Assembly: GCA_009914755.4 (NCBI GenBank)
Contig: CP086569.2
Coordinates: 12,448,001-12,512,000 of the forward strand
From: the human T2T-CHM13v2.0 reference genome, Homo sapiens
DNA: 64,000 bases
Direction of reading: 5' to 3'
Below the pieces are notes generated by a model that was given only the letters and a program-made list of their open reading frames with translations, made no database searches and had not been told where the DNA came from. The position numbers and the translations under genes are program-made. Shown here in pieces: positions 1 to 64,000 of this stretch; positions within the stretch are counted from its first letter, which is position 1; every line of letters begins with the position of its first letter.

Positions 1-1176
1 GGATTAGAAAACAATGGGCTCGAATGGAATTTAATCAAGTCGAATTTAATGGAATGGAATGGAATGCAAAACTATGGAATAGCATCAAATGGAATGGAAC
101 AGAATAGAGTGGAATGGAATGGAATACACAGGTATAGAACAGACTCGAATGTAATGGATTGCAATGTAAGTGATTCAAAGGGAATGGAATCAAATGGAAT
201 ATAATCAAATGGAATGGAATGGAGTGCATTGGAATGGAATAAAATGGAATGCAAACAATGGTACAGAACTCATTTGAATCTAGAGGAATGGAATCGAATG
301 CAATGGAAAAGAATGGAATGGACACGAATGGAATGGATTGGAAACAAATGGAATGGAAAGGATTTTAATCATACAGAACAAAATAGAATGCAATGGACTC
401 GAATGAAATGGAGTCGAAGAGAATAGTATCAAATGGAAAGGAATGGAATGCAATCGAATCGAATGGAATGTTAATGAAATTAATTGAAAGGAATAGAATG
501 GAATGAAGTGTAACGGAAAGATATCGAATTGAATGGAATTGAATGGAATGGACACAAACGGAATGGACTGGAATGGAATGAACTCGAAAGGAATGGAATG
601 GAGCGGAACGGACTCGAGTGCAATGGAATCGAATGGTATAGAATAGAATGGAATGGAATGGAAAGGAATAGAAGGGAATGGAATCGGATCCAACGGGACA
701 GATTGGAATGGGGTAGAATTGAATAGAATCGAATGGAATGGCATCGAATGTAATGGAATGGAATGGACTCGAATGGAATGGAGTGACATGTAATGGAATC
801 GAAAGGAATGGAATCGAATGAAATGGAATTGAATGGAATAGAAAGGAATAGAATGGAATGGAGTTTAATGGAAAGATATTAAAAGTAATGGAATGGAATT
901 GAGTGGACACGAATGGAATGGACTGGAATGGAAAGGACTCGAATGAAATGGAGCGCATTAGAATGGACTCGAATGGAATGGATTGGAGTGGAATGGTCTC
1001 GAATGGATTGGAAACGAATGGAATGGAAAGGAGTAGAATGGAATGTAATCAAATGGAACGAAATGGAATGGAATGGATTCGACTGGAACAGAATTGAATG
1101 GAGTGGAATTGATTGGAATGGAATGCAATCGAATGGAATGAACACGAATGGAATAGAATGAAATGAAATGGCATAG

Positions 1177-1231
1177 AATGGAATGGAATGGAATGGAATG
1201 GAATGGAATGGAATGGAATGGAATGGAATGG
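1177..1231. repeat. Pure (AATGG)11 pentamer microsatellite tract within the HOR (landmark c/d boundary); length-polymorphic between copies
   Basis: 55 bp of perfect aatgg repeats. The homologous tract is 60 bp (12 units) at 5018-5077, and of other lengths in copies 6, 10 and 11. Confidence 0.9.
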
Positions 1232-2984
1232 CATGGCATGGAATGTGATGGAATGGAATGAAATTGATTGGAATGGGATGGGCCCAAAAGTAAAGGACTC
1301 AAATAAAAGGGACTCAAATAGAATGAATTGGAAAGAAACGGTCTCGAATGTAATTCATTCGAATGGAATGATATTGAATGGAATGCAATAGTATGGAATG
1401 GTATCGAATAGAATGGAATAGAATGGAATGGAATGGAACGGAATGGAGTGCATTTGAACGGACTCAAATGCAATAAATTGCAATATAATTGATTCAAATG
1501 GAATGGAATCGAATAGAATGTAAACAAACGGAATGGAAGGCAATGCAATGGAAAGGAATCGAATGAAATGGACCCGAGTGGAATGGACTCACATAGAACA
1601 GCCTTGAATGTAATGGATGACAATGTATTAGATTCGAAAGGACTGAAATCGAATGGAATGTAATCAAATAGAACGGAATTGAATGCATGGAATGGCATAG
1701 AAAGTAATGCAATGGAATGGAATAGACTGGAATGGAATGGAATCGGATGGAATGTAATGAAATGTAATGGAAGGAATGCCATGGAATGGAATGGAATGGA
1801 ATGCAATGGGCCGGTGTATAATGGAGTGCAATGGAATTCAGTGGAATGTAGTCAATAGGAATGAAATAGAATGGAATTCAATATAAGGGAATGGCATCCA
1901 ATGGCAAGGAATGGAGTGGACTCCAATGGAAACAACATGAAAGGAATATAATATAATGGAATGGCATTGAACGAAATGGAAAGCAATGGAGTTAAAAGGT
2001 AAGATATCGAATGGAAAAGAATTGAATGGACTCGAATGGAATATAACGGAATGGAATGGACTCGAATGGAATGTACTAGAGTTGAATGGAATCGAATGGA
2101 ATGGAAAACAGTGGAAAGGAAAGGAAGGGAATTGAAAGGAAAGGAATAGAATGGAATGGAATCGGATAGAATGGAATTGAATGGAATGGAAACTAAAGGA
2201 ATAGAATAGAAAGGAATGGCATTGAATGGAATGGAATGGAATGGAATCAGATGGAACAGAAAGGAATGGAATAGAATCGAATGGTATGGCATCGAATGGA
2301 TTGGAATGGAAAGGAATGGAATGAACTCGAATGGAATGTACTCAAATGGAATAGAATAGAATGGAATGGAAGTAAATATAATGGACTCGAATGGAATGGA
2401 TTGGAATAAATTGGAATTGAATGTATTGGATTCGATTGGAAAGGAATGGAATGGAATGGAATGGATTCGAATGGAATGGAATCGAATGGAATGGAACGAA
2501 TTGGAATGTAATTGAATGGCGTCGAAAACAGTAGAAAGAAATGAAGTTTAATCGAATGATATCGAATGGAATTGAATGGAATGTACGCGAATGGAATGGA
2601 CTGGAATGGAATGGACTCTATGGGAATGAAGAGGAGTGGAGTGGACTCGAATGTCATGGAGACGATTGGAATGGAAAGGAATGCAAAGGAATGGAATGGA
2701 ATGGAATCTGATGCATCGCAATGGAATGGAATGGGGTCGAATGGAATAGAATCGAAAGGAATGGCATCCAATGGAATGGAAACGAATTGAATGGAATGGC
2801 ATGGAATGGAATGGAAAGGAATATAATGGAAAGGAATCGGATGGAACGGAATGGAATGGAATGGAGTCGAATGGAATAGAATCTAATAGAATTGCATTGA
2901 TAGGAATGGAATCGAACGGACTCGAAAGGATTGGAGCCTAACAGAAGAGAATCGAACAGAATAGCATCAAATGGAATGGAAATG

Positions 2985-3030
2985 AATGGAATGGAATGGA
3001 ATGGAATGGAATGGAATGGAATGGAATGGA
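2985..3030. repeat. Pure (AATGG)9 tract (f-region); site of the duplication breakpoint in copy 2 and length-polymorphic between copies
   Basis: 46 bp here, against 56 bp at 16921-16976 and about 33 bp at 9261-9293. Confidence 0.9.
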
Positions 3031-3768
3031 CACACATGTAATGGACTTGAATGGAATGGAATCAAATAGAATGGACGCGAATGGAATGGTCTCGAATGGA
3101 ATTTATGAAAATAGAATGGAATCGAAATTCATTGAACATTATGGAATGGAATCAAATGGAATGAAATCGAATGGAAGGAACCGGAATGGAATGTACTGGA
3201 ATAGAACGGACTCGAATGTTACGGAAAGAAAAGTAAGTGATTCGGATGTCTTTTAATTGAATGGAATGAAATCAAATGGAATGGAAAGGAATAAAATGGA
3301 ATGGAATGAAATAGAATGCAATAGAATGGAAGGGAGTGGAGTCGAGTTGAATGGAATCGAATTGAATGGAATAGAATGGAATAGAATCAAATGGAATGGA
3401 TTCGAATGCAATGGAACCGAATGGAATGGACTGGAACATAATGGAATCGAAAGGAATGGAAAGGAATTGAATGCAATGGAAAGCAATGGAATCGAATGTA
3501 ATGGAGTCGTATGTAGTGGAGTCGAATGGAATGGAATCAAATGGAAGGAAAAGAATACAATCGAATGGAATAGAATAGAATGCAACAGAATGAAACGGAG
3601 TGGAATCGAGTGGGATGGAATAGAATTGAATGGAATGGAAAGGAATGGAATCGAATGGAATGGAATCGAATGGAATGGAACCGAATGGAATGGAATGGAA
3701 CAAAATGGAATTGAACAGATTAGAATCGAATGGATCCGAATCGAATGGAATGGATTATAATGGAATGG

Positions 3769-3799
3769 AATGGAATGGAATGGAATGGAATGGAATGGA
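3769..3799. repeat. Pure (GGAAT)n tract at the 3' end of each HOR unit; length-polymorphic
   Basis: About 31 bp here. About 50 bp at 10009-10058, and about 72 bp at 48151-48222. Confidence 0.85.
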
Positions 3800-4411
3800 C
3801 CCAAATGTAATGAACTCTAATGAAATGGACTTTAATAGAATGGATTAGAAAACAATGGGCTCGAATGGAATTTAATCAAGTCGAATTTAATGGAATGGAA
3901 TGGAATGCAAAACTATGGAATAGCATCAAATGGAATGGAACAGAATAGAGTGGAATGGAATGGAATACACAGGTATAGAACAGACTCGAATGTAATGGAT
4001 TGCAATGTAAGTGATTCAAAGGGAATGGAATCAAATGGAATATAATCAAATGGAATGGAATGGAGTGCATTGGAATGGAATAAAATGGAATGCAAACAAT
4101 GGTACAGAACTCATTTGAATCTAGAGGAATGGAATCGAATGCAATGGAAAAGAATGGAATGGACACGAATGGAATGGATTGGAAACAAATGGAATGGAAA
4201 GGATTTTAATCATACAGAACAAAATAGAATGCAATGGACTCGAATGAAATGGAGTCGAAGAGAATAGTATCAAATGGAAAGGAATGGAATGCAATCGAAT
4301 CGAATGGAATGTTAATGAAATTAATTGAAAGGAATAGAATGGAATGAAGTGTAACGGAAAGATATCGAATTGAATGGAATTGAATGGAATGGACACAAAC
4401 GGAATGGACTG

Positions 4412-6868
4412 GAATGGAATGAACTCGAAAGGAATGGAATGGAGCGGAACGGACTCGAGTGCAATGGAATCGAATGGTATAGAATAGAATGGAATGGAAT
4501 GGAAAGGAATAGAAGGGAATGGAATCGGATCCAACGGGACAGATTGGAATGGGGTAGAACTGAATAGAATCGAATGGAATGGCATCGAATGTAATGGAAT
4601 GGAATGGACTCGAATGGAATGGAGTGACATGTAATGGAATCGAAAGGAATGGAATCGAATGAAATGGAATTGAATGGAATAGAAAGGAATAGAATGGAAC
4701 GGAGTTTAATGGAAAGATATTAAAAGTAATGGAATGGAATTGAGTGGACACGAATGGAATGGACTGGAATGGAAAGGACTCCAATGAAATGGAGCGCATT
4801 AGAATGGACTCGAATGGAATGGATTGGAGTGGAATGGTCTCGAATGGATTGGAAACGAATGGAATGGAAAGGAGTAGAATGGAATGTAATCAAATGGAAC
4901 GAAATGGAATGGAATGGATTCGACTGGAACAGAATTGAATGGAGTGGAATTGATTGGAATGGAATGCAATCGAATGGAATGAACACGAATGGAATAGAAT
5001 GAAATGAAATGGCATAGAATGGAATGGAATGGAATGGAATGGAATGGAATGGAATGGAATGGAATGGAATGGAATGGCATGGCATGGAATGTGATGGAAT
5101 GGAATGAAATTGATTGGAATGGGATGGGCCCAAAAGTAAAGGACTCAAATAAAAGGGACTCAAATAGAATGAATTGGAAAGAAACGGTCTCGAATGTAAT
5201 TCATTCGAATGGAATGATATTGAATGGAATGCAATAGTATGGAATGGTATCGAATAGAATGGAATAGAATGGAATGGAATGGAACGGAATGGAGTGCATT
5301 TGAACGGACTCAAATGCAATAAATTGCAATATAATTGATTCAAATGGAATGGAATCGAATAGAATGTAAACAAACGGAATGGAAGGCAATGCAATGGAAA
5401 GGAATCGAATGAAATGGACCCGAGTGGAATGGACTCACATAGAACAGCCTTGAATGTAATGGATGACAATGTATTAGATTCGAAAGGACTGAAATCGAAT
5501 GGAATGTAATCAAATAGAACGGAATTGAATGCATGGAATGGCATAGAAAGTAATGCAATGGAATGGAATAGACTGGAATGGAATGGAATCGGATGGAATG
5601 TAATGAAATGTAATGGAAGGAATGCCATGGAATGGAATGGAATGGAATGCAATGGGCCGGTGTATAATGGAGTGCAATGGAATTCAGTGGAATGTAGTCA
5701 ATAGGAATGAAATAGAATGGAATTCAATATAAGGGAATGGCATCCAATGGCAAGGAATGGAGTGGACTCCAATGGAAACAACATGAAAGGAATATAATAT
5801 AATGGAATGGCATTGAACGAAATGGAAAGCAATGGAGTTAAAAGGTAAGATATCGAATGGAAAAGAATTGAATGGACTCGAATGGAATATAACGGAATGG
5901 AATGGACTCGAATGGAATGTACTAGAGTTGAATGGAATCGAATGGAATGGAAAACAGTGGAAAGGAAAGGAAGGGAATTGAAAGGAAAGGAATAGAATGG
6001 AATGGAATCGGATAGAATGGAATTGAATGGAATGGAAACTAAAGGAATAGAATAGAAAGGAATGGCATTGAATGGAATGGAATGGAATGGAATCAGATGG
6101 AACAGAAAGGAATGGAATAGAATCGAATGGTATGGCATCGAATGGATTGGAATGGAAAGGAATGGAATGAACTCGAATGGAATGTACTCAAATGGAATAG
6201 AATAGAATGGAATGGAAGTAAATATAATGGACTCGAATGGAATGGATTGGAATAAATTGGAATTGAATGTATTGGATTCGATTGGAAAGGAATGGAATGG
6301 AATGGAATGGATTCGAATGGAATGGAATCGAATGGAATGGAACGAATTGGAATGTAATTGAATGGCGTCGAAAACAGTAGAAAGAAATGAAGTTTAATCG
6401 AATGATATCGAATGGAATTGAATGGAATGTACGCGAATGGAATGGACTGGAATGGAATGGACTCTATGGGAATGAAGAGGAGTGGAGTGGACTCGAATGT
6501 CATGGAGACGATTGGAATGGAAAGGAATGCAAAGGAATGGAATGGAATGGAATCTGATGCTTCGCAATGGAATGGAATGGGGTCGAATGGAATAGAATCG
6601 AAAGGAATGGCATCCAATGGAATGGAAACGAATTGAATGGAATGGCATGGAATGGAATGGAAAGGAATATAATGGAAAGGAATCGGATGGAACGGAATGG
6701 AATGTAATGGAGTCGAATGGAATAGAATCTAATAGAATTGCATTGATAGGAATGGAATCGAACGGACTCGAAAGGATTGGAGCCTAACAGAAGAGAATCG
6801 AACAGAATAGCATCAAATGGAATGGAAATGAATGGAATGGAATGGAATGGAATGGAATGGAATGGAAT
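4412..6868. repeat. First copy of the ~2.4 kb intra-HOR tandem duplication (equivalent to unit positions ~570-3030)
   Basis: Collinear with 6869..9293. Compare ORF sets 4720..5652 / 5698..6138 / 6093..6617 with 7338..8090 / 8136..8576 / 8531..9055. Confidence 0.8.
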
Positions 6869-9293
6869 GAACTCGAAAGGAATGGAATGGAGCGGAACGG
6901 ACTCGAGTGCAATGGAATCGAATGGTATAGAATAGAATGGAATGGAATGGAAAGGAATAGAAGGGAATGGAATCGGATCCAACGGGACAGATTGGAATGG
7001 GGTAGAATTGAATAGAATCGAATGGAATGGCATCGAATGTAATGGAATGGAATGGACTCGAATGGAATGGAGTGACATGTAATGGAATCGAAAGGAATGG
7101 AATCGAATGAAATGGAATTGAATGGAATAGAAAGGAATAGAATGGAATGGAGTTTAATGGAAAGATATTAAAAGTAATGGAATGGAATTGAGTGGACACG
7201 AATGGAATGGACTGGAATGGAAAGGACTCGAATGAAATGGAGCGCATTAGAATGGACTCGAATGGAATGGATTGGAGTGGAATGGTCTCGAATGGATTGG
7301 AAACGAATGGAATGGAAAGGAGTAGAATGGAATGTAATCAAATGGAACGAAATGGAATGGAATGGATTCGACTGGAACAGAATTGAATGGAGTGGAATTG
7401 ATTGGAATGGAATGCAATCGAATGGAATGAACACGAATGGAATAGAATGAAATGAAATGGCATAGAATGGAATGGAATGGAATGGAATGGAATGGAATGG
7501 AATGGAATGGAATGGAATGGCATGGAATGTGATGGAATGGAATGAAATTGATTGGAATGGGATGGGCCCAAAAGTAAAGGACTCAAATAAAAGGGACTCA
7601 AATAGAATGAATTGGAAAGAAACGGTCTCGAATGTAATTCATTCGAATGGAATGATATTGAATGGAATGCAATAGTATGGAATGGTATCGAATAGAATGG
7701 AATAGAATGGAATGGAATGGAACGGAATGGAGTGCATTTGAACGGACTCAAATGCAATAAATTGCAATATAATTGATTCAAATGGAATGGAATCGAATAG
7801 AATGTAAACAAACGGAATGGAAGGCAATGCAATGGAAAGGAATCGAATGAAATGGACCCGAGTGGAATGGACTCACGTAGAACAGCCTTGAATGTAATGG
7901 ATGACAATGTATTAGATTCGAAAGGACTGAAATCGAATGGAATGTAATCAAATAGAACGGAATTGAATGCATGGAATGGCATAGAAAGTAATGCAATGGA
8001 ATGGAATAGACTGGAATGGAATGGAATCGGATGGAATGTAATGAAATGTAATGGAAGGAATGCCATGGAATGGAATGGAATGGAATGCAATGGGCCGGTG
8101 TATAATGGAGTGCAATGGAATTCAGTGGAATGTAGTCAATAGGAATGAAATAGAATGGAATTCAATATAAGGGAATGGCATCCAATGGCAAGGAATGGAG
8201 TGGACTCCAATGGAAACAACATGAAAGGAATATAATATAATGGAATGGCATTGAACGAAATGGAAAGCAATGGAGTTAAAAGGTAAGATATCGAATGGAA
8301 AAGAATTGAATGGACTCGAATGGAATATAACGGAATGGAATGGACTCGAATGGAATGTACTAGAGTTGAATGGAATCGAATGGAATGGAAAACAGTGGAA
8401 AGGAAAGGAAGGGAATTGAAAGGAAAGGAATAGAATGGAATGGAATCGGATAGAATGGAATTGAATGGAATGGAAACTAAAGGAATAGAATAGAAAGGAA
8501 TGGCATTGAATGGAATGGAATGGAATGGAATCAGATGGAACAGAAAGGAATGGAATAGAATCGAATGGTATGGCATCGAATGGATTGGAATGGAAAGGAA
8601 TGGAATGAACTCGAATGGAATGTACTCAAATGGAATAGAATAGAATGGAATGGAAGTAAATATAATGGACTCGAATGGAATGGATTGGAATAAATTGGAA
8701 TTGAATGTATTGGATTCGATTGGAAAGGAATGGAATGGAATGGAATGGATTCGAATGGAATGGAATCGAATGGAATGGAACGAATTGGAATGTAATTGAA
8801 TGGCGTCGAAAACAGTAGAAAGAAATGAAGTTTAATCGAATGATATCGAATGGAATTGAATGGAATGTACGCGAATGGAATGGACTGGAATGGAATGGAC
8901 TCTATGGGAATGAAGACGAGTGGAGTGGACTCGAATGTCATGGAGACGATTGGAATGGAAAGGAATGCAAAGGAATGGAATGGAATGGAATCTGATGCAT
9001 CGCAATGGAATGGAATGGGGTCGAATGGAATAGAATCGAAAGGAATGGCATCCAATGGAATGGAAACGAATTGAATGGAATGGCATGGAATGGAATGGAA
9101 AGGAATATAATGGAAAGGAATCGGATGGAACGGAATGGAATGTAATGGAGTCGAATGGAATAGAATCTAATAGAATTGCATTGATAGGAATGGAATCGAA
9201 CGGACTCGAAAGGATTGGAGCCTAACAGAAGAGAATCGAACAGAATAGCATCAAATGGAATGGAAATGAATGGAATGGAATGGAATGGAATGG
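6869..9293. repeat. Second copy of the ~2.4 kb intra-HOR tandem duplication
   Basis: It restarts at ggaatgaactcgaaaggaatggaatggagcggaacgg (equivalent to unit position ~575) directly after the f-region (ggaat)n tract, and then runs through landmarks b-f again. Confidence 0.8.
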
Positions 9294-10100
9294 ACACACA
9301 TGTAATGGACTTGAATGGAATGGAATCAAATAGAATGGACGCGAATGGAATGGTCTCGAATGGAATTTATGAAAATAGAATGGAATCGAAATTCATTGAA
9401 CATTATGGAATGGAATCAAATGGAATGAAATCGAATGGAAGGAACCGGAATGGAATGTACTGGAATAGAACGGACTCGAATGTTACGGAAAGAAAAGTAA
9501 GTGATTCGGATGTCTTTTAATTGAATGGAATGAAATCAAATGGAATGGAAAGGAATAAAATGGAATGGAATGAAATAGAATGCAATAGAATGGAAGGGAG
9601 TGGAGTCGAGTTGAATGGAATCGAATTGAATGGAATAGAATGGAATAGAATCAAATGGAATGGATTCGAATGCAATGGAACCGAATGGAATGGACTGGAA
9701 CATAATGGAATCGAAAGGAATGGAAAGGAATTGAATGCAATGGAAAGCAATGGAATCGAATGTAATGGAGTCGTATGTAGTGGAGTCGAATGGAATGGAA
9801 TCAAATGGAAGGAAAAGAATACAATCGAATGGAATAGAATAGAATGCAACAGAATGAAACGGAGTGGAATCGAGTGGGATGGAATAGAATTGAATGGAAT
9901 GGAAAGGAATGGAATCGAATGGAATGGAACCGAATGGAATGGAATGGAACAAAATGGAATTGAACAGATTAGAATCGAATGGATCCGAATCGAATGGAAT
10001 GGAATATAATGGAATGGAATGGAATGGAATGGAATGGAATGGAATGGAATGGAATGGACCCAAAGGTAATGAACTCTAATGAAATGGACTTTAATAGAAT

Positions 10101-13100
10101 GGATTAGAAAACAATGGGCTCGAATGGAATTTAATCAAGTCGAATTTAATGGAATGGAATGGAATGCAAAACTATGGAATAGCATCAAATGGAATGGAAC
10201 AGAATAGAGTGGAATGGAATGGAATACACAGGTATAGAACAGACTCGAATGTAATGGATTGCAATGTAAGTGATTCAAAGGGAATGGAATCAAATGGAAT
10301 ATAATCAAATGGAATGGAATGGAGTGCATTGGAATGGAATAAAATGGAATGCAAACAATGGTACAGAACTCATTTGAATGTAGAGGAATGGAATCGAATG
10401 CAATGGAAAAGAATGGAATGGACACGAATGGAATGGATTGGAAACAAATGGAATGGAAAGGATTTTAATCATACAGAACAAAATAGAATGCAATGGACTC
10501 GAATGAAATGGAGTCGAAGAGAATAGTATCAAATGGAAAGGAATGGAATGCAATCGAATCGAATGGAATGTTAATGAAATTAATTGAAAGGAATAGAATG
10601 GAATGAAGTGTAAAGGAAAGATATCGAATTGAATGGAATTGAATGGAATGGACACAAACGGAATGGACTGGAATGGAATGAACTCGAAAGGAATGGAATG
10701 GAGCGGAACGGACTCGAGTGCAATGGAATCGAATGGTATAGAATAGAATGGAATGGAATGGAAAGGAATAGAAGGGAATGGAATCGGATCCAACGGGACA
10801 GATTGGAATGGGGTAGAATTGAATAGAATCGAATGGAATGGCATCGAATGTAATGGAATGGAATGGACTCGAATGGAATGGAGTGACATGTAATGGAATC
10901 GAAAGGAATGGAATCGAATGAAATGGAATTGAATGGAATAGAAAGGAATAGAATGGAATGGAGTTTAATGGAAAGATATTAAAAGTAATGGAATGGAATT
11001 GAGTGGACACGAATGGAATGGACTGGAATGGAAAGGACTCGAATGAAATGGAGCGCATTAGAATGGACTCGAATGGAATGGATTGGAGTGGAATGGTCTC
11101 GAATGGATTGGAAACGAATGGAATGGAAAGGAGTAGAATGGAATGTAATCAAATGGAACGAAATGGAATGGAATGGATTCGACTGGAACAGAATTGAATG
11201 GAGTGGAATTGATTGGAATGGAATGCAATCGAATGGAATGAACACGAATGGAATAGAATGAAATGAAATGGCATAGAATGGAATGGAATGGAATGGAATG
11301 GAATGGAATGGAATGGAATGGAATGGAATGGCATGGAATGTGATGGAATGGAATGAAATTGATTGGAATGGGATGGGCCCAAAAGTAAAGGACTCAAATA
11401 AAAGGGACTCAAATAGAATGAATTGGAAAGAAACGGTCTCGAATGTAATTCATTCGAATGGAATGATATTGAATGGAATGCAATAGTATGGAATGGTATC
11501 GAATAGAATGGAATAGAATGGAATGGAATGGAACGGAATGGAGTGCATTTGAACGGACTCAAATGCAATAAATTGCAATATAATTGATTCAAATGGAATG
11601 GAATCGAATAGAATGTAAACAAACGGAATGGAAGGCAATGCAATGGAAAGGAATCGAATGAAATGGACCCGAGTGGAATGGACTCACGTAGAACAGCCTT
11701 GAATGTAATGGATGACAATGTATTAGATTCGAAAGGACTGAAATCGAATGGAATGTAATCAAATAGAACGGAATTGAATGCATGGAATGGCATAGAAAGT
11801 AATGCAATGGAATGGAATAGACTGGAATGGAATGGAATCGGATGGAATGTAATGAAATGTAATGGAAGGAATGCCATGGAATGGAATGGAATGGAATGCA
11901 ATGGGCCGGTGTATAATGGAGTGCAATGGAATTCAGTGGAATGTAGTCAATAGGAATGAAATAGAATGGAATTCAATATAAGGGAATGGCATCCAATGGC
12001 AAGGAATGGAGTGGACTCCAATGGAAACAACATGAAAGGAATATAATATAATGGAATGGCATTGAACGAAATGGAAAGCAATGGAGTTAAAAGGTAAGAT
12101 ATCGAATGGAAAAGAATTGAATGGACTCGAATGGAATATAACGGAATGGAATGGACTCGAATGGAATGTACTAGAGTTGAATGGAATCGAATGGAATGGA
12201 AAACAGTGGAAAGGAAAGGAAGGGAATTGAAAGGAAAGGAATAGAATGGAATGGAATCGGATAGAATGGAATTGAATGGAATGGAAACTAAAGGAATAGA
12301 ATAGAAAGGAATGGCATTGAATGGAATGGAATGGAATGGAATCAGATGGAACAGAAAGGAATGGAATAGAATCGAATGGTATGGCATCGAATGGATTGGA
12401 ATGGAAAGGAATGGAATGAACTCGAATGGAATGTACTCAAATGGAATAGAATAGAATGGAATGGAAGTAAATATAATGGACTCGAATGGAATGGATTGGA
12501 ATAAATTGGAATTGAATGTATTGGATTCGATTGGAAAGGAATGGAATGGAATGGAATGGATTCGAATGGAATGGAATCGAATGGAATGGAACGAATTGGA
12601 ATGTAATTGAATGGCGTCGAAAACAGTAGAAAGAAATGAAGTTTAATCGAATGATATCGAATGGAATTGAATGGAATGTACGCGAATGGAATGGACTGGA
12701 ATGGAATGGACTCTATGGGAATGAAGAGGAGTGGAGTGGACTCGAATGTCATGGAGACGATTGGAATGGAAAGGAATGCAAAGGAATGGAATGGAATGGA
12801 ATCTGATGCATCGCAATGGAATGGAATGGGGTCGAATGGAATAGAATCGAAAGGAATGGCATCCAATGGAATGGAAACGAATTGAATGGAATGGCATGGA
12901 ATGGAATGGAAAGGAATATAATGGAAAGGAATCGGATGGAACGGAATGGAATGTAATGGAGTCGAATGGAATAGAATCTAATAGAATTGCATTGATAGGA
13001 ATGGAATCGAACGGACTCGAAAGGATTGGAGCCTAACAGAAGAGAATCGAACAGAATAGCATCAAATGGAATGGAAATGAATGGAATGGAATGGAATGGA

Positions 13101-13931
13101 ATGGAATGGAATGGAATGGAATGGACACACATGTAATGGACTTGAATGGAATGGAATCAAATAGAATGGACGCGAATGGAATGGTCTCGAATGGAATTTA
13201 TGAAAATAGAATGGAATCGAAATTCATTGAACATTATGGAATGGAATCAAATGGAATGAAATCGAATGGAAGGAACCGGAATGGAATGTACTGGAATAGA
13301 ACGGACTCGAATGTTACGGAAAGAAAAGTAAGTGATTCGGATGTCTTTTAATTGAATGGAATGAAATCAAATGGAATGGAAAGGAATAAAATGGAATGGA
13401 ATGAAATAGAATGCAATAGAATGGAAGGGAGTGGAGTCGAGTTGAATGGAATCGAATTGAATGGAATAGAATGGAATAGAATCAAATGGAATGGATTCGA
13501 ATGCAATGGAACCGAATGGAATGGACTGGAACATAATGGAATCGAAAGGAATGGAAAGGAATTGAATGCAATGGAAAGCAATGGAATCGAATGTAATGGA
13601 GTCGTATGTAGTGGAGTCGAATGGAATGGAATCAAATGGAAGGAAAAGAATACAATCGAATGGAATAGAATAGAATGCAACAGAATGAAACGGAGTGGAA
13701 TCGAGTGGGATGGAATAGAATTGAATGGAATGGAAAGGAATGGAATCGAATGGAATGGAACCGAATGGAATGGAATGGAACAAAATGGAATTGAACAGAT
13801 TAGAATCGAATGGATCCGAATCGAATGGAATGGAATATAATGGAATGGAATGGAATGGAATGGAATGGAATGGAATGGAATGGAATGGACCCAAAGGTAA
13901 TGAACTCTAATGAAATGGACTTTAATAGAAT
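10101..13931. repeat. HOR copy 3, short form (3831 bp)
   Basis: Marker at 10101. Same landmark ORF series (10135..10425 through 13367..13894). Confidence 0.9.
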
Positions 13932-21598: not shown

Positions 21599-24500
21599 GG
21601 ATTAGAAAACAATGGGCTCGAATGGAATTTAATCAAGTCGAATTTAATGGAATGGAATGGAATGCAAAACTATGGAATAGCATCAAATGGAATGGAACAG
21701 AATAGAGTGGAATGGAATGGAATACACAGGTATAGAACAGACTCGAATGTAATGGATTGCAATGTAAGTGATTCAAAGGGAATGGAATCAAATGGAATAT
21801 AATCAAATGGAATGGAATGGAGTGCATTGGAATGGAATAAAATGGAATGCAAACAATGGTACAGAACTCATTTGAATCTAGAGGAATGGAATCGAATGCA
21901 ATGGAAAAGAATGGAATGGACACGAATGGAATGGATTGGAAACAAATGGAATGGAAAGGATTTTAATCATACAGAACAAAATAGAATGCAATGGACTCGA
22001 ATGAAATGGAGTCGAAGAGAATAGTATCAAATGGAAAGGAATGGAATGCAATCGAATCGAATGGAATGTTAATGAAATTAATTGAAAGGAATAGAATGGA
22101 ATGAAGTGTAACGGAAAGATATCGAATTGAATGGAATTGAATGGAATGGACACAAACGGAATGGACTGGAATGGAATGAACTCGAAAGGAATGGAATGGA
22201 GCGGAACGGACTCGAGTGCAATGGAATCGAATGGTATAGAATAGAATGGAATGGAATGGAAAGGAATAGAAAGGAATGGAATCGGATCCAACGGTACAGA
22301 TTGGAATGGGGTAGAATTGAATAGAATCGAATGGAATGGCATCGAATGTAATGGAATGGAATGGACTCGAATGGAATGGAGTGACATGTAATGGAATCGA
22401 AAGGAATGGAATCGAATGAAATGGAATTGAATGGAATAGAAAGGAATAGAATGGAATGGAGTTTAATGGAAAGATATTAAAAGTAATGGAATGGAATTGA
22501 GTGGACACGAATGGAATGGACTGGAATGGAAAGGACTCGAATGAAAAGGAACGCATTAGAATGGACTCGAATGGAATGGATTGGAGTGGAATGGTCTCGA
22601 ATGGATTGGAAACGAATGGAATGGAAAGGAGCAGAATGGAATGTAATCAAATGGAACGAAATGGAATGGAATGGATTCGACTGGAACAGAATTGAATGGA
22701 GTGGAATTGATTGGAATGGAATGCAATCGAATGGAATGAACACGAATGGAATAGAATGAAATGAAATGGCATAGAATGGAATGGCATGGAATGGAATGTA
22801 ATGGAATGGAATGGAATGGAATGGAATGGCATGGCATGGAATGTGATGGAATGGAATGAAATTGATTGGAATGGGATGGGCCCAAAAGTAAAGGACTCAA
22901 ATAAAAGGGACTCAAATAGAATGAATTGGAAAGAAACGGTCTCGAATGTAATTCATTCGAATGGAATGATATTGAATGGAATGCAATAGTATGGAATGGT
23001 ATCGAATAGAATGGAATAGAATGGAATGGAATGGAACGGAATGGAGTGCATTTGAACGGACTCAAATGCAATAAATTGCAATATAATTGATTCAAATGGA
23101 ATGGAATCGAATAGAATGTAAACAAACGGAATGGAAGGCAATGCAATGGAAAGGAATCGAATGAAATGGAATAAATGGAATGGAATCGAAGGGAAAGGAC
23201 GCGAATATAATGGACTGTTAAGGAAAGGTCTCGAATCGAATTTATTCCAATAGTATGGAATCGAATGGAATGCAATACTATTGAATCGAATCGAATGGAA
23301 TGGAATTTAATGGAATAGACAGGAATGGAATGAACTGGAAGTGAATGGACAAGAACGTAATATATTGCAATGTAATTTATTCAAATGGAATGAAATGCAA
23401 TCGAATGGAATGGACTCGATTGGAATGGACCGGAGTGGAATGGACTCAAATGGCATGGAAACGAATGTAATGGAATGGAACTGAAAGCAAAGGAATCTAC
23501 TGGAATAGAATCGAACGGAACAGAAACGAATGAAATGGAATGGAGTGGAATGGACTCGAAAGGAATGTATTCGAATGTAATGGACCAGAAAGGAATGGAA
23601 TCCAATGGAATGGAATTGAAAGGAATCAAGAGGAATAGAATGGAATAGAGTGTAATTAAATGATATCGAATGGAAGGGAATGGAATGAAATCGAATGGAA
23701 TGCACTGGAATGGAATGGACTCGATCAGAACGGACTGGAGAGGCATGTACACAAATGAAATGGAAACGAATGGAATGGAATGAAATGGAATGGAAATGGA
23801 ATTGAAAGGAACGGAATGGAATGGAATGGAATGGAATGGAATGGAATGGAATGGATTGGAATAGAATGGAATGGATTGGAATAGAATGGATTCAAATAAA
23901 ATAGAATCGATTGGAATGGTATTGAATGGAAGGGACTTGAATGGAATGGAAAGCAATGGAAGATATTGGAATCGAATAGCATCGAATGAAATGGAATGGA
24001 ACGGAATGGAACGGACCCGAATGGAATGGAAAGGAATGGACTCAAATGTAATGGACTCGAAAGGAATCGACTGAAATATAATAGACTCGAAAAGAATGGC
24101 CTCGAGCGGAATTTATTTGAATAGAATGGAATCAAATGGAATACAATAGTATTGAATGGAACAGAATGGAATGGAATCGAATGGAATGTAATCAAATGGA
24201 ATGGAACGGAATTCAATATAGTGGAATAGAATGGAATGCATTGGAAAGGAGCAGAGTGGAATCAGTGGAATGGAATCGAGTGGAATGGAATCAAAGGGAA
24301 CGAAATCGAATTGAATGGACTTGAATGGAATTGACTCGAAAGGAATTGACTCGAAAGGAATGGACTGGAACAAAAAGGAATCAAATGGACAGGAATGGAA
24401 GGGACTCGAATGGAATGGAGTCAAATGCAAACGCATCGAATGGAATGGATTCAAATGGAATGCAATTGAATGGAATAGAAAGGAAGAGAATGGAATTGAG

Positions 24501-27500
24501 AGTAATGGAAAGATATGGATTGGAATGAAATGGAATGGAAAGGAATTGAATGGAAAGGAATGGACTCGGAAGAAATGGATTGGAATGGAATGGTCTCCAA
24601 TGGAATGGACTGGAGTGGAACGGAATCGAATGGAATGAAAAGAATGGAACGGAATGGAACGGAAAGGAATAGAATGTTATGGAATCCGATTGGACAGAAT
24701 GGAATGGAATGGAGTTTCATGAAATGAAGTCGAATAGAGTGGCATCAAAAGGAATGTAATGGAACGGAGTGGACTCCAAAGGAATGGACTCGAAAGGAAT
24801 GGAGACGAACCAAATTGAATCCAATGGATTGGAGTCGAACAGAATGGAATGGAATGGAATGAACTCGACTGGAGTAGAGAGGAATGTAAAGGAATAGAAT
24901 GGAATGTAATCAAATGGATTGCAACTGAATGGAATCAAAAATAATAGAAAGGAATGGAGTGTAAAGGGATGATATTGAATATAATGGAATGGAATGGAAT
25001 TCAATGGAATGGAGTCGAAGGAATGGACAGGAATGTAATGGACTCCAATGGAATGGAATGGATGAAAATGGATTTGAACAGATTGGAATCGAACGGAATG
25101 GAATGCAATGGAATGGAATGGACTCGAATGGAGAAGAGACAAAGGGAATGGAAACGAATTCAATGGAATTGAAAAGAATGGAATGGAATGGCGTGTAATG
25201 GTAAGATACTAAATGGAATGGAATTGAATGGAATGTAGTGGAATGGACCCAAATGCAATGCCCTCGAATGGAATATACTCAAATGGAATGGAATCAAAAG
25301 GAAAGGTCTCAAATGGAATTTATTCAATACAATGGAATCGAATGGAATGCAATAGAATGGAATGGAATCGAATGTAATGGAATCAAATAGAATGGACCAG
25401 AATGGAATGGACTGCCATAGAACGGACTGCAGTGTAATGGATTGAATTCTAATTCATTCAAATGGAATGGAATGGAGTGGAATGGAATCGAATGGAATGG
25501 ATAGGATTGTACTGGATTGGAATAGAATGGAATGCAACGGAGTGGAATGGAGTTGAATGAAGTGGAATGGAATCGATTGGAATGGAATCAAATGGAATGG
25601 ACGGGAATGGAATGGATTAGAAGAGCACAGACTCGAATATAATGGATTGCAATGTAATTGATTCAAATGGAATGGAATCGAATGGAATGTTATAAAATTG
25701 AAGGGATTGGAGTTCAATGCAATGGAAAAGAATGGAATGCAAAGGAATGGAAAGGAACGGAGTGAAATCGAGTGTAATGGAATCGAATGGAATGAAATCG
25801 AATGGAATGGACTCAAAAGAAATGGACGAGGGACAAAACGGAATCGAACTGATTGGAATGGAACGGAACGGAAAGGAATGGAATGTTCTCCATTGGATGG
25901 GAGTAGAACGGATTGGAATGGAATGGAATGAAATGGAATGGAAAGGAATAGAATGGAATGGAATGGAATGGAAGGTAATGGAAAGATATCGAACGGATTG
26001 GAAAGGAATGCAATGGACCCTAATGGAATGGAATGGAATTCAACAGAAACGAATGGAATGGACTGGAGTGAAATGGAGTCGAATGTAATTGACTGGAGTG
26101 GAATGGACTCGAAAGGAATGGACTCGAATAGAATGGACTGGAATGGAATGTACTCGAATGGAGTGGAAAGGAATAAATTGGATTCCACCAGATTGGAATG
26201 GAACAGACTGAAATGGAATGGAATGGAATGCAATGGAACGGCTCGACTGGAATGGAGTCGAATGCAATGGAATAGAAAGGAAAGGAATTGAATGGAATTG
26301 AAAGTAATAGAATTAAATGGAGTGCAAAGAAAAGATATCGAATGGAATGGATCGAAAAGAAATAGAATGGAATGGACAGGAATGGAATGGAATAGAATGG
26401 AATAGACTGGCGTGCAATGAAAACGAATGGAATGGAATGGAAAGGAATGGAGTACAATAAATACTATCGAATGGAATGGAATGGAATGGAATGGAATGGA
26501 ATGGAATGGAATGGAATGGAGGCGAAAGGAAAAGAATGGATTGGAATGTCACCGAATGGAAAGATATGGAATGGAAAGGAGTGGATACGAATGGAATGGA
26601 ATAGAAAGGAACGGAAAGGTAAAGAATGGAATGGAATCGGATAGAATGGAATGCAATGTAATGGAGTCGAATGGAAAATAATCGAGTAGAATGATATCGA
26701 ATGGAATGGAATTTAATGGAATGGAATGGAATGGAACGGACTCGAATGGAATGAACTCAAATGGATTAGAATAGAATGGAATGGAACTAAACGTAATGAA
26801 CTCGAATGGAATGGACACAAATAGAATGGAAGGGAAAGGAATGGGATTGAATGCAATTTATTGGAATAGAATGGAATTCAATGGAATGCAACATTGTGGC
26901 ATGGAATCAAATGGAAAGGAATCGAATGAAATGGACCCGAGTGGAATGGACTCACATAGAACAGCCTTGAGTGTAATGGATGACAATGTATTAGATTCGA
27001 AAGGACTGAAATCGAATGGAATGTAATCAAATAGAACGGAATTGAATGCATGGAATGGCATAGAAAGTAATGCAATGGAATGGAATAGACTGGAATGGAA
27101 TGGAATCGGATGGAATGTAATGAAATGTAATGGAAGGAATGCCATGGAATGGAATGGAATGGAATGCAATGGGCCGGTGTATAATGGAGTGCAATGGAAT
27201 TCAGTGGAATGTAGTCAATAGGAATGAAATAGAATGGAATTCAATATAAGGGAATGGCATCCAATGGCAAGGAATGGAGTGGACTCCAATGGAAACAACA
27301 TGAAAGGAATATAATATAATGGAATGGCATTGAACGAAATGGAAAGCAATGGAGTTAAAAGGTAAGATATCGAATGGAAAAGAATTGAATGGACTCGAAT
27401 GGAATATAACGGAATGGAATGGACTCGAATGGAATGTACTAGAGTTGAATGGAATCGAATGGAATGGAAAACAGTGGAAAGGAAAGGAAGGGAATTGAAA

Positions 27501-29184: not shown

Positions 29185-32100
29185 GGATTAGAAAACAATG
29201 GGCTCGAATGGAATTTAATCAAGTCGAATTTAATGGAATGGAATGGAATGCAAAACTATGGAATAGCATCAAATGGAATGGAACAGAATAGAGTGGAATG
29301 GAATGGAATACACAGGAATAGAACAGACTCGAATGTAATGGATTGCAATGTAAGTGATTCAAAGGGAATGGAATCAAATGGAATAAAATCAAATGGAATG
29401 GAATGGAGTGCATTGGAATGGAATAAAATGGAATGCAAACAATGGTACAGAACTCATTTGAATGTAGAGGAATGGAATCGAATGCAATGGAAAAGAATGG
29501 AATGGACACGAATGGAATGGATTGGAAACAAATGGAATGGAAAGGATTTTAATCATACAGAACAAAATAGAATGCAATGGACTCGAATGAAATGGAGTCG
29601 AAGAGAATAGTATCAAATGGAAAGGAATGGAATGCAATCGAATCGAATGGAATGTTAATGAAATTAATTGAAAGGAATAGAATGGAATGAAGTGTAACGG
29701 AAAGATATCGAATTGAATGGAATTGAATGGAATGGACACAAACGGAATGGACTGGAATGGAATGAACTCGAAAGGAATGGAATGGAGCGGAACGGACTCG
29801 AGTGCAATGGAATCGAATGGTATAGAATAGAATGGAATGGAATGGAAAGGAATAGAAGGGAATGGAATCGGATCCAACGGGACAGATTGGAATGGGGTAG
29901 AATTGAATAGAATCGAATGGAATGGCATCGTATGTAATTGAATGGAATGGACTCGAATGGAATGGAGTGACATGTAATGGAATCGAAAGGAATGGAATCG
30001 AATGAAATGGAATTGAATGGAATAGAAAGGAATAGAATGGAATGGAGTTTAATGGAAAGATATTAAAAGTAATGGAATGGAATTGAGTGGACACGACTGG
30101 AATGGACTGGAATGGAAAGGACTCGAATGAAATGGAACGCATTAGAATGGACTCGAATGGAATGGATTGGAGTGGAATGGTCTCGAATGGATTGGAAACG
30201 AATGGAATGGAAAGGAGTAGAATGGAATGTAATCAAATGGAACGAAATGGAATGGAATGGATTCGACTGGAACAGAATTGAATGGAGTGGAATTGATTGG
30301 AATGGAATGCAAACGAATGGAATGAACACGAATGAATAGAATGAAATGAAATGGCATAGAATGGAATGGAATGGAATGGAATGGAATGGAATGGAATGGA
30401 ATGGAATGGAATGGAATGGCATGGCATGGAATGTGATGGAATGGAATGAAATTGATTGTAATGGGATGGGCCCAAAAATAAAGGACTCAAATAAAAGGGA
30501 CTCAAATAGAATGAATTGGAAAGAAACGGTCTCGAATGTAATTCATTCGAATGGAATGATATTGAATGGAATGCAATAGTATGGAAAGGTATCGAAAAGA
30601 ATGGAATAGAATGGAATGGAATGGAACGGAATGGAGTGCATTTGAACGGACTCAAATGCAATAAATTGCAATATAATTGATTCAAATGGAATGGAATCGA
30701 ATAGAATGTAAACAAACGGAATGGAAGGCAATGCAATGGAAAGGAATCGAATGAAATGGAATAAATGGAATGGAATCGAAGGGAAAGGACACGAATATAA
30801 TGGACTGTTAAGGAAAGGTCTCGAATCGAATTTATTCCAATAGAATGGAATCGAATGGAATGCAATACTATTGAATCGAATCGAATGGAATGGAATTGAA
30901 TGGAATAGACAGGAATGGAATGAACTGGAAGTGAATGGACAAGAACGTAATATATTGCAATGTAATGTATTCAAATGGAATGGAATGCAATCGAATGGAA
31001 TGGACTCGATTGGAATGGACTGGAGTGGAATTTACTCAAATGGAATGGAAACGAATGTAATGGAATGGAACTGAAAGCAAAGGAATCTACTGGAATAGAA
31101 TCGAACGGAACAGAAAGGAATGAAATGGAATGGAGTGGAATGGACTCGAAAGGAATGTATTCGAATGTAATGGACCTGAAAGGAATGGAATCCAATGGAA
31201 TGGAATTGAATGGAATCAAGAAGAATAGAATGGAATAGAGTGTAATTAAATGATATCGAATGGAACGGAATGGAATGAAATCGAATGGAATGCACTGGAA
31301 TGGAATGGACTCGATCAGAACGGACTGGAGAGGCATGTACACAAATGAAATGGAAACGAATGGAATGGAATGAAATGGAATGGAAATGGAATTGAAAGGA
31401 ACGGAATGGAATGGAATGGAATGGAATGAAATGGAATGGAATGGATTGGAATAGAATGGAATGGATTGGAATAGAATGGATTCAAATAAAATAGAATCGA
31501 TTGGAATGGTATTGAATGGAAGGGACTTGAATGGAATGGAAAGCAATGGAAGATATTGGAATCGAATGGCATCCAATGAAATGGAATGGAACAGAATGGA
31601 ACGGACCCGAATGGAATGGAATGGACTCAAATGTAATGGACTCGAAAGTAATCGACTGAAATATAATAGACTCGAAAAGAATGGCCTCGAGCGGAATTTA
31701 TTTGAATAGAATGGAATCAAATGGAATACAGTAGTATTTAATGGAACAGAATGGAATGGAATCGAATGGAATGTAATCAAATGGAATGGAACGGAATTCA
31801 ATATAGTGGAATAGAATGGAATGCATTGGAAAGGAGCAGAGTGGAATCAGTGGAATGGAATCGAGTGGAATGGAATCAAAGGGAACGAAATCGAATTGAA
31901 TGGACTTGAATGGAATTGACTCGAAAGGAATTGACTCGAAAGGAATGGACTGGAACAAAAAGGAATCAAATGGACAGGAATGGAATGGAATGGAATGGAC
32001 TCGAATGGAATGGAGTCAAATGCAAACGCATCGAATGGAATGGATTCAAATGGAATGCAATTGAATGGAATAGAAAGGAAGAGAATGGAATTGAGAGTAA

Positions 32101-63300: not shown

Positions 63301-64000
63301 AATTGAATGGAATGGAAAGCAATGGAATCGAATAGAATGGAGTTGAATGGAATGGAAACGAATGCAATGGAAAGGAACAAAATGGAATCGAACAGATTGG
63401 AATCGAATGGTTCCAAATCAAATGGAATGGAATATAATGGAATGGAATGGAATGGAATGGACTCCAATGGAATGGATTCGAATGGAATGGAGTCGAAAGG
63501 AATGGAAAAGAATATAATGGAATCAAATGGAATGGAATTGAATAGAAAAGGAAAAGAATGGAAGGAAGTGTAATGGAAGATAACGAATGAAATGGAATAG
63601 AATGTAATGGACTGGAATGGAATGGACTGGAACGAAATGGACTGGAATGGAATGGACTCGAAAGGAATGGACTGTAGGGGAATGGACTCGAATGGAATGG
63701 AAACAAATGGAATGGAAATGATTGGAATTGAAAGGAATAGAATGGCAAGGAATAGAATGGAATGGAATCACATTGAATGGATTGGAATTGCTTGCAGTCG
63801 AAAGGAATAGAAAAGAATGGAATGGTATCAAATGGAACGGAATGGAAGGCAATGGAATTTAATTGAATGGAATGGACTTGAATCGAATACAATCGAATGC
63901 AATGGCATTGAATGGAATGTAAAGGACCCAAATGTAATGGACCCAAATGGAATGGACTCAAATAGAGTAGACCCGAAAGAAATAGAATCGACTGGAATTC
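63300..64000. repeat. Divergent HSat-like sequence not matching the HOR consensus (possible array-domain boundary or a variant copy)
   Basis: The expected unit end (ggacccaaatgtaatgaactctaatgaaatggactttaatagaatggattagaaaac) is absent. Instead: ggactccaatggaatggattcgaatgg ... ggactgtaggggaatggactcg ... cattgaatggattggaattgcttgcagtcgaaagg, which occurs nowhere else in the window. Confidence 0.6.

What the first reader, a model, noticed from the sequence alone, without database searches (positions are those of the whole stretch)
3842..10100. One 6.26 kb HOR variant created by a ~2.4 kb internal tandem duplication with its breakpoint inside a pure (GGAAT)n run
Unit 2 reads a-b-c-d-e-f then b-c-d-e-f-g. 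The switch happens inside the (ggaat)n tract at about 6829-6868. The f-region tract (equivalent to 2985-3030) is joined directly to ggaatgaactcgaaagg, equivalent to position ~575.

Both partners are perfect pentamer runs, so this is a textbook unequal-exchange or replication-slippage junction mediated by the microsatellite tracts embedded in the HOR. It shows those tracts acting as recombination hot spots that restructure the HOR.
Basis: seen in the sequence. Interest (0 to 1): 0.55.

Follow-up and report, generated by a model that had tools for sequence, protein, structure and literature searches.

The report
Chimeric repeat unit in human satellite 3
One 6.26 kb unit in a human (GGAAT)n satellite array really is two partial copies of the 3.84 kb unit joined through 12 shared bases, which is an ordinary kind of satellite rearrangement and may be a 1.4 kb loss rather than a 2.4 kb gain.

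Summary
Window 3842-10100 aligns to unit 1 on two collinear diagonals: unit positions 1-3023 map to 3842-6869, and 560-3841 map to 6849-10100. The two internal copies (4401-6856 and 6849-9294) are 99.3% identical, against a satellite background of at most about 0.66. The junction is unique in the window and lies in a (GGAAT)7 run (6834-6868). The switch point is confined to 6858-6869.

Three corrections apply:
- Only the f partner is a long pure run, (GGAAT)8. The b partner is just (GGAAT)2. The exact shared stretch is 12 bp (TGGAATGGAATG), a word present 48 times per unit. Flanks in that register are only about 69% identical. This is a microhomology junction, not long-homology crossing-over.
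- a-f|b-g is equally two adjacent units minus about 1.4 kb. The right half is nearly identical to the next unit (1 SNV) and differs from the left half by 7 SNVs. There is no evidence for a fresh in-place duplication.
- The hot-spot claim rests on one event. The other kb-scale variant here, a 3.74 kb block present or absent, uses a 26-bp non-pure repeat.

The array is human HSat3, probably Y-linked HSat3A3. Assembly error cannot be tested here. Ordinary; low interest.

The parts
3842..10100 (+). The 6.26 kb variant unit (unit 2): a-f joined to b-g
   Evidence: Anchor spacing; two BLAST diagonals to unit 1
3842..6857 (+). Left half (a-f), u1-like. Position 6857 is A (f-type) where the b site has C (u1 568).
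   Evidence: 99.67% to u1 1-3023. Identical to u1 in region a. Private SNVs at u1 positions 719, 859 and 941; 2715T is shared only with L6.
6834..6868 (+). Pure (GGAAT)7 run that contains the junction
   Evidence: Tract scans
6858..6869 (+). 12-bp microhomology TGGAATGGAATG: the interval within which the switch from f to b must lie
   Evidence: Flanking discriminating bases are 6857 (f-type) and 6870 (b-type)
6870..10100 (+). Right half (b-g), nearly identical to the same part of unit 3
   Evidence: u2b-u3: 1 SNV in b-f and 0 in g. They share 1232A, 1593G, 3666C, a 15-bp deletion and T3 = 9 copies.
4401..6856 (+). First copy of the repeated b-f block
   Evidence: Self-BLAST, 99.3% to 6849-9294
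6849..9294 (+). Second copy of the repeated b-f block
   Evidence: Self-BLAST; lag 2438-2448
4401..4421 (+). Intact b site in the first copy (GGAATGGACTGGAATGGAATG): only two perfect pentamers
   Evidence: Sequence read
9272..9291 (+). The second copy's own f tract, contracted to (GGAAT)4 (8 in u1 and u3)
   Evidence: Tract table
2988..3027 (+). Reference f tract (T2), (GGAAT)8, in unit 1
560..580 (+). Reference b site in unit 1
10101..13931 (+). Unit 3, the closest relative of the right half of unit 2
   Evidence: Distance tables

Best explanation
Unit 2 is a real chimeric unit of a human HSat3 nested tandem repeat array. One out-of-register join links the (GGAAT)n tract of region f in one unit to the short GGAATGGAAT at region b of a different, neighbouring unit. 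The join uses 12 bp of exact microhomology and adds no extra bases.

My preferred reading is that two adjacent, already slightly different units lost the roughly 1.4 kb between them (g of the first plus a of the second). This could happen by single-strand annealing or microhomology-mediated end joining after a break, by a template switch, or by an out-of-register sister-chromatid exchange. The result is 6.26 kb.

Shown:
- the structure and the position of the junction;
- the 12-bp homology;
- the poor flank homology in the misaligned register;
- the relatedness of each half to its outer neighbour.

Inferred:
- the direction of the change (loss or gain);
- the repair pathway;
- Y-linkage. If true, Y-linkage restricts the partners to the same chromatid or the sister chromatid.
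For: - Two collinear diagonals and a single junction.
- The switch is confined to 6858-6869, with no inserted bases.
- 12 bp of exact homology has a chance probability of 0.008.
- Flank identity in the misaligned register is only 0.68-0.70 over +-100-400 bp. That is far below what long-homology recombination uses (established knowledge).
- SNV distances in b-f: u2a-u2b 7, u2b-u3 1, u2a-u1 5, u1-u3 3. The four-point sums favour (u2a,u1)|(u2b,u3): 6 against 10 and 10.
- u2b and u3 exclusively share derived 1232A and 1593G. They are identical in g, sharing 3666C, a 15-bp deletion and T3 = 9 copies.
- u2a is identical to u1 in region a.
- No derived variant is shared exclusively by u2a and u2b.
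- Two units minus u1 3024-3841 and 1-580 is a 1398 bp loss, which reproduces the structure (arithmetic).
- Private SNVs in each half make a collapsed or expanded assembly less likely.
Against: - The phylogeny of the short units is nearly star-like. u2a and u2b could still be sisters if unit 3 was later copied from u2b by a one-period, out-of-register duplication. The near-identity at one-period lag from 6869 to about 11315 is compatible with that.
- Gain and loss therefore each need two structural events and cannot be separated from this window.
- Gene conversion between neighbours could also have made each half resemble its outer neighbour.
- No reads or second assembly were available.
- The junction was not found in metagenome contigs, but that search had low power.
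Confidence: 0.5

Rival explanations
1. One reading: an in-place tandem duplication of about 2.45 kb (b-f) within one unit. It would arise by replication slippage or template switching, or by sister-chromatid exchange between f and b of the same unit. The event would be old enough to have accumulated differences. Unit 3 would later have been copied from the second half.
For: The structure fits equally well. The same 12-bp microhomology would serve. The star-like variant pattern and the near-identity at one-period lag (6869 to about 11315) allow unit 3 to derive from u2b.
Against: The two copies share no exclusive derived variant. They differ by 7 SNVs in 2.4 kb, which is as much as, or more than, most pairs among the neighbouring units u1, u3 and u5 (3-6; pairs involving u4 reach 8-12). 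u2b differs from u3 by 1 SNV. This reading needs an extra later duplication or conversion to explain u2b being nearly identical to u3. Double-strand-break repair by annealing gives only losses, so more pathways lead to a loss (established knowledge, inference).
Confidence: 0.35
2. Assembly artefact: a false join, or a mis-resolved copy number, in a highly repetitive array.
For: The junction occurs once in 64 kb. It was not found in 241 million metagenome records. No reads could be examined. The right half is almost identical to unit 3, which is the situation in which assemblers can err.
Against: The only sequence shared at the join is a 35-bp tract with 12 bp of true homology, far too short to mislead long-read overlap. 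Both halves carry private variants: 719C, 859C and 941C on the left, and 2633C (shared only with u5) plus a 4-copy T2 tract on the right. The junction search was specific for the window's GAACTCGAAAGG variant, whereas most outside contigs read GAACTGGAAAGG, so its silence means little.
Confidence: 0.07
3. The long pure (GGAAT)n tracts are genuine hot spots for kb-scale restructuring of the unit.
For: One partner of this junction lies in a tract class, (GGAAT) of 5 or more copies, that covers only 3.3% of the unit. These tracts are visibly unstable: T1, T2 and T3 range over 4-11 copies among units, while all 4-copy tracts conserved across the units are invariant.
Against: This is a single event. 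The chance that at least one of two breakpoints falls in such a tract is about 6.5% per junction, and about 12% across the two kb-scale junction classes seen. The X-block junction uses a 26-bp non-pure repeat. The b partner is an ordinary two-pentamer word present 48-77 times per unit.
Confidence: 0.15

Closest known systems
Structural variants of alpha-satellite higher-order repeats (units with gained or lost monomers), and the unequal-crossover model for satellite arrays (Smith 1976, as cited in PMC4022460; 10.1101/2021.07.12.452052)
   Same: A homogeneous tandem array contains occasional units of non-canonical length. They are made by an out-of-register join between copies of the same unit, and the parts stay collinear.
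   Different: Alpha-satellite variants shift by whole 171-bp monomers that share extended homology. Here the only sub-frame is 5 bp, the exact homology is 12 bp, and the flanks are about 69% identical. HSat2,3 units are termed nested tandem repeats, not HORs.
Derived or chimeric kb-scale units in Y-chromosome HSat3-type arrays: DYZ1 at about 3.5-3.6 kb, and the 2.7 kb and 3.1 kb arrays derived from DYZ18 and DYZ1 (10.1101/2022.12.01.518658; 10.1101/2022.12.01.518724)
   Same: Pentamer-derived satellite with kb-scale units more than 98% alike. New unit forms are built by joining parts of existing units. The evolution is attributed to unequal exchange, and sister-chromatid exchanges have been observed.
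   Different: Those forms have been amplified into arrays of their own. The 6.26 kb unit is seen once. This array is not DYZ1: the unit length differs and the HSat3A6 24-mer is absent.
Deletion between short direct repeats by single-strand annealing, microhomology-mediated end joining or template switching
   Same: The junction lies within a short perfect repeat (12 bp), has no inserted bases, and has poor homology beyond the repeat.
   Different: The pathway cannot be shown from sequence. In a tandem array the same junction can also be read as a gain.
Microsatellite replication slippage
   Same: The pure (GGAAT)n tracts in the unit vary between units by multiples of 5 bp, and only the long ones vary.
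   Different: Slippage explains tract-length changes, not a 2.4 kb or 1.4 kb jump to a different part of the unit.

Membership tests
Human satellite 3 (HSat3) | Sequence derived from the pentamer CATTC/GGAAT, with strong strand asymmetry | tested here: met
   GGAAT occurs 3893 times on the + strand, against 10 for ATTCC. Exact GGAAT covers 30% of bases. GC is 0.37-0.39 and GC skew about 0.6 along the whole window.
Human satellite 3 (HSat3) | Not HSat2 (lacks HSat2 subfamily-specific 24-mers) | tested here: met
   The three HSat2 24-mers of Altemose 2014 Table 1 give 0 hits even with 2 mismatches.
Human satellite 3 (HSat3) | Human origin | tested here: met
   A 30-mer from the unit retrieves 14 contigs from the metagenome collection. 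They are 95-99% identical to the 7.6 kb unit, and one of them is labelled as a human skin metagenome. Bacterial and archaeal genomes gave 0 hits.
HSat2,3 nested tandem repeat organisation | kb-scale unit repeated head to tail at high identity | tested here: met
   There are 11 units, in a short form of 3.81-3.86 kb and a long form of 7.59-7.63 kb, 96-99.7% identical to unit 1.
HSat3A3 subfamily (Y chromosome) | Carries the subfamily-specific 24-mers (only the most common one, CTTTACACTCCATTCCTTTCTATT, was available) | tested here: met
   There are exact matches at 24943, 32538, 40163 and 51591, and a one-mismatch match at 59168. That is one per X block. None of the other 13 subfamily 24-mers matches exactly. 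A single k-mer makes this assignment provisional.
HSat3A3 subfamily (Y chromosome) | Located on the Y chromosome (pericentromeric) | not testable with these tools
   No human genome assembly was available to search. The localisation comes from PMC4022460 and 10.1101/2021.07.12.452052.
DYZ1 / HSat3A6 | About 3.5-3.6 kb unit and HSat3A6-specific 24-mer | tested here: not met
   Units are 3.84 kb or 7.6 kb. The HSat3A6 24-mer gives 0 hits with up to 1 mismatch. A Y-repeat PCR primer recalled from memory is also absent.
Unequal homologous crossing-over (long-homology NAHR) product | Extended high-identity homology between the two partners around the breakpoint | tested here: not met
   In the misaligned register only 12 bp are exact. 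Identity over +-100-400 bp is 0.68-0.70, which is the generic satellite background.
Unequal homologous crossing-over (long-homology NAHR) product | A reciprocal product exists (a-g unit of about 1.4 kb, or the complementary form) | tested here: not met
   No unit of about 1.4 kb occurs among the 11 units of the window. Absence from 64 kb is weak evidence.
Microhomology-mediated junction (SSA, MMEJ or template switch) | Short perfect repeat at the join, longer than chance, with no filler bases | tested here: met
   The repeat is the 12-bp TGGAATGGAATG. P(12 bp or more) = 0.008 for random junctions. The junction is seamless.
Microhomology-mediated junction (SSA, MMEJ or template switch) | Dependence on the corresponding repair factors | not testable with these tools
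   This needs experiment.
In-place tandem duplication | The two copies are each other's closest relatives (share derived variants) | tested here: not met
   u2a and u2b share no exclusive derived variant and differ by 7 SNVs. u2b differs from u3 by 1 SNV. An old duplication followed by copying of u2b into u3 is not excluded.

The most novel reading that the evidence does not exclude
The long pure (GGAAT)n tracts embedded in the HSat3 unit may be preferred entry points for kb-scale out-of-register joins, not merely sites of 5-bp slippage. If so, they would set where new unit forms of this satellite are born. If the array is Y-linked, such junctions would be rare, effectively unique events usable as markers of Y lineages inside heterochromatin.
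Probability: 0.15. Interest if true: 0.3.

Novelty: already known. Interest (0 to 1): 0.1.

Why it matters
It matters little beyond the locus. It gives a base-resolved example of how a kb-scale satellite unit is remodelled, and a caution that 'duplication' and 'deletion' cannot be told apart from one junction in a tandem array. If the array is the Y-chromosome HSat3A3 block, the unique junction and the short/long unit polymorphism could serve as structural markers when comparing complete Y assemblies. A census of such junctions could test whether pure pentamer tracts really attract breakpoints.

Tried and rejected
- **The repeat finder on 3842-10100.** It was swamped by the generic 60-72% satellite background (about 400 'copies' per family) and did not isolate the 2.45 kb repeat. 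I used BLAST and lag identity instead.
- **Exact-protein look-ups.** The two ORFs that span the junction are not on record.
- **Junction-specific pattern scan of metagenome contigs.** It gave 0 hits. I later found its power was low, because most outside contigs read GAACTGGAAAGG at the b site.
- **Marker scan of bacterial and archaeal genomes.** It gave 0 hits.
- **Rfam scan of the window.** It found nothing.
- **Y-repeat PCR primers recalled from memory.** One is absent and the other gives only generic 2-mismatch matches. This is not informative beyond 'not DYZ1'.
- **Literature searches for a 7.6 kb HSat3 unit or a published unit size for DYZ17/HSat3A3.** Nothing was found.
- **Rejected model.** I considered a single sister-chromatid exchange between f of the unit after u1 and b of u1 itself. 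It predicts that u2b resembles u1 and u2a resembles u3, which is the opposite of what is seen.
- **Rejected idea.** The X block is not a diverged in-register copy of the short unit. It aligns to it at about 69% at every offset.
Full report
**What the window is.** All 64 kb is one strand of a (GGAAT)n-derived satellite.
- GGAAT occurs 3893 times on the + strand, against 10 for ATTCC. Exact GGAAT covers 30% of bases. GC is 0.37-0.39 and GC skew about 0.6 throughout.
- The first 40 bases recur at 1, 3842, 10101, 13932, 17788, 21599, 29185, 36815, 44420, 48261 and 55858.
- BLAST of unit 1 against the window shows three unit forms:
  - a short form of 3.81-3.86 kb (u1, u3, u4, u5, u9);
  - a long form of 7.59-7.63 kb (L6, L7, L8, L10, and L11, which runs to the window end);
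  - the single 6.26 kb unit of the finding.
- The long form is the short form plus a 3.74 kb block, which I call X, inserted at unit position 1547-1572.
- X aligns to the short unit only at about 69%, and does so at every offset, so it is not an in-register diverged copy.
- In L6, X is bounded by a perfect 26-bp direct repeat, AATGGAAAGGAATCGAATGAAATGGA.

**Source.**
- A 30-mer from the unit retrieves 14 contigs from the metagenome collection, one of them labelled as a human skin metagenome. These are collapsed copies of the long 7.6 kb unit, 95-99% identical to L7. One of them also carries the short-form junction.
- The array is therefore human, high-copy, and present in other people. Both unit forms exist outside this assembly.
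- I tested the 14 subfamily-specific 24-mers tabulated by Altemose et al. 2014 (PMC4022460). Only the HSat3A3 one matches exactly, once in each X block. The DYZ1/HSat3A6 one is absent.
- HSat3A3 is reported as almost entirely Y-chromosomal. The window is therefore probably the Y pericentromeric HSat3 block. This rests on one k-mer, and I could not test the location.
- kb-scale units in HSat2,3 are called nested tandem repeats rather than HORs (10.1101/2021.07.12.452052).

**The observation.** It is correct.
- Unit positions 1-3023 map to 3842-6869 at 99.67%, and 560-3841 map to 6849-10100 at 98.3%.
- Within unit 2, 4401-6856 and 6849-9294 are 99.3% identical, with 7 mismatches and one 10-bp tract gap.
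- An ungapped lag scan of 5100-6800 gives 99.8% at lag 2438. The 99th percentile over all lags is 0.59, and the next off-register lag gives 0.66.
- The junction reads ATGGAAATGAAT(GGAAT)7GAACTCGAAAGG, with the pure run at 6834-6868. It occurs once in the window.
- Position 6857 is A, as in the f tract, where the b site has C. Position 6870 is A, as in b, where the f tract has G. The switch therefore lies in the 12 bases 6858-6869.

- The f partner is (GGAAT)8 in unit 1 (2988-3027).
- The b partner is GGAAT GGACT GGAAT GGAAT G (560-580), which is two perfect pentamers.
- The exact shared word, TGGAATGGAATG, occurs 48 times per unit.
- Twelve bases is still far more than chance. Only 0.8% of random position pairs in the unit offer 12 bp or more, so the join was homology-guided.
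- Around that word, the two partners in the misaligned register are only 0.68-0.70 identical over +-100 to +-400 bp, which is the ordinary satellite background.
- From established knowledge of recombination, that is not a substrate for long-homology unequal crossing-over. It is the signature of a microhomology-mediated join: single-strand annealing, end joining, a template switch, or an exchange resolved in a very short patch. The pathway is an inference.

**Duplication or deletion.**
- a-f|b-g equals one unit plus a second b-f block (+2.45 kb).
- It equally equals two adjacent units minus u1 3024-3841 and 1-580 (-1.40 kb).
- The variant pattern bears on this:

| Comparison | Region | SNVs |
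|---|---|---|
| u2a vs u2b | b-f | 7 |
| u2b vs u3 | b-f | 1 |
| u2a vs u1 | b-f | 5 |
| u1 vs u3 | b-f | 3 |
| u2b vs u3 | g | 0 |
| u2a vs u1 | a | 0 |

- The four-point sums favour (u2a,u1)|(u2b,u3): 6 against 10 and 10.
- u2b and u3 alone share derived 1232A and 1593G.
- In region g, u2b and u3 share 3666C, a 15-bp deletion and a 9-copy T3 tract.
- In region a, u2a and u1 share 280C.
- u2a has private 719C, 859C and 941C, and carries 2715T, which it shares only with L6.
- No derived variant is exclusive to u2a plus u2b.
- The second copy is therefore a close sister of the next unit, not of the first copy. A recent in-place duplication is not supported.
- I cannot exclude an older duplication followed by a one-period, out-of-register duplication that copied u2b into u3. 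Near-identity at one-period lag runs from 6869 to about 11315, and u3 equals u4 over unit positions 1 to about 1215. The tree of the short units is almost star-like.
- A single exchange with unit 1 as partner is rejected, because it predicts the opposite relationships.
- I prefer the loss reading at about 0.5 against about 0.35 for the gain reading. More repair routes give losses, and the loss reading needs no later event to explain why u2b resembles u3.

**The hot-spot claim.**
- The three long pure tracts per unit vary from 4 to 11 copies between units, while every 4-copy tract conserved across the units is invariant. That is classic length-dependent slippage.
- For kb-scale restructuring the evidence is a single junction with one partner in a tract class covering 3.3% of the unit.
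- The other kb-scale polymorphism, presence or absence of X, is bounded by a non-pure 26-bp repeat.
- The generalisation is untested.

**Assembly error.**
- It cannot be tested here.
- Against it: the shared sequence at the join is far too short to mislead long-read overlap, and each half has its own private variants.
- The junction scan of metagenome contigs was negative but weak. Those contigs are collapsed consensus copies and mostly carry G, not C, in the b-site word I required.

**Comparison with what is known.**
- Unit-length variants produced by out-of-register joins are standard in satellite arrays. Alpha-satellite HOR variants and unequal exchange are described.
- On the Y chromosome, HSat3-type units have given rise to derived 2.7 kb and 3.1 kb units. 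Sister-chromatid exchange in such arrays has been observed directly.
- This case differs only in detail: there is no monomer frame, the microhomology is 12 bp, and the variant is single-copy.
- It is a sound observation of an ordinary phenomenon.

Noticed in passing
window 23171-26909, 30761-34509, 38386-42124, 49843-53546, 57415-61168: A 3.74 kb block (X) is present in 5 of 11 units, giving 7.6 kb 'long' units against 3.84 kb 'short' ones. In L6 it is flanked by a perfect 26-bp direct repeat, AATGGAAAGGAATCGAATGAAATGGA (23145 and 26910). X is unrelated in register to the short unit (about 69%). Outside metagenome contigs are mostly the long form, so the short form may be a deletion derivative.
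   Followed up: partly
window 6869-11315: Near-identity at a lag of one period. u2b(b-g) equals u3(b-g) apart from 1 SNV and one tract change. u3 equals u4 over unit positions 1 to about 1215. u5 and L6 also share most of their region g variants. This suggests out-of-register one-period duplications or conversion between neighbours.
   Followed up: partly
tracts at u1 1180-1229, 2988-3027, 3762-3796 and their equivalents in all units: The three long pure (GGAAT)n tracts vary from 4 to 11 copies among units. The 4-copy tracts conserved across the units never vary. This is a length threshold for slippage.
   Followed up: yes
window 48261-64000: The two rightmost units (L10, L11) are much more diverged, with 27-47 SNVs in b-f against 1-12 among u1-u5. 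They carry extra indels: a 31-bp deletion at u1 2046-2076 in L10, insertions of 15 bp at u1 2301 and 3441, and a rearranged X at 59716-59731 in L11.
   Followed up: partly
window 63492-64000: The periodic array stops. The last roughly 500 bp match the unit only at about 75% (generic satellite), so the window appears to reach the edge of this homogeneous domain.
   Followed up: partly
L001, L007-L010, L012 (metagenome contigs), site equivalent to window 580-591: Most outside copies of the array read GAACTGGAAAGG where all 11 intact b sites in the window, and the junction itself, read GAACTCGAAAGG. Only L003 matches the window. The window therefore represents a sub-variant of the array.
   Followed up: partly
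window 24943-24966, 32538-32561, 40163-40186, 51591-51614, 59168-59191 (- strand): The published HSat3A3 (Y-specific) diagnostic 24-mer occurs once in every X block and nowhere in the short units. Short units have only 2-mismatch look-alikes, at 10592 and 14423.
   Followed up: yes
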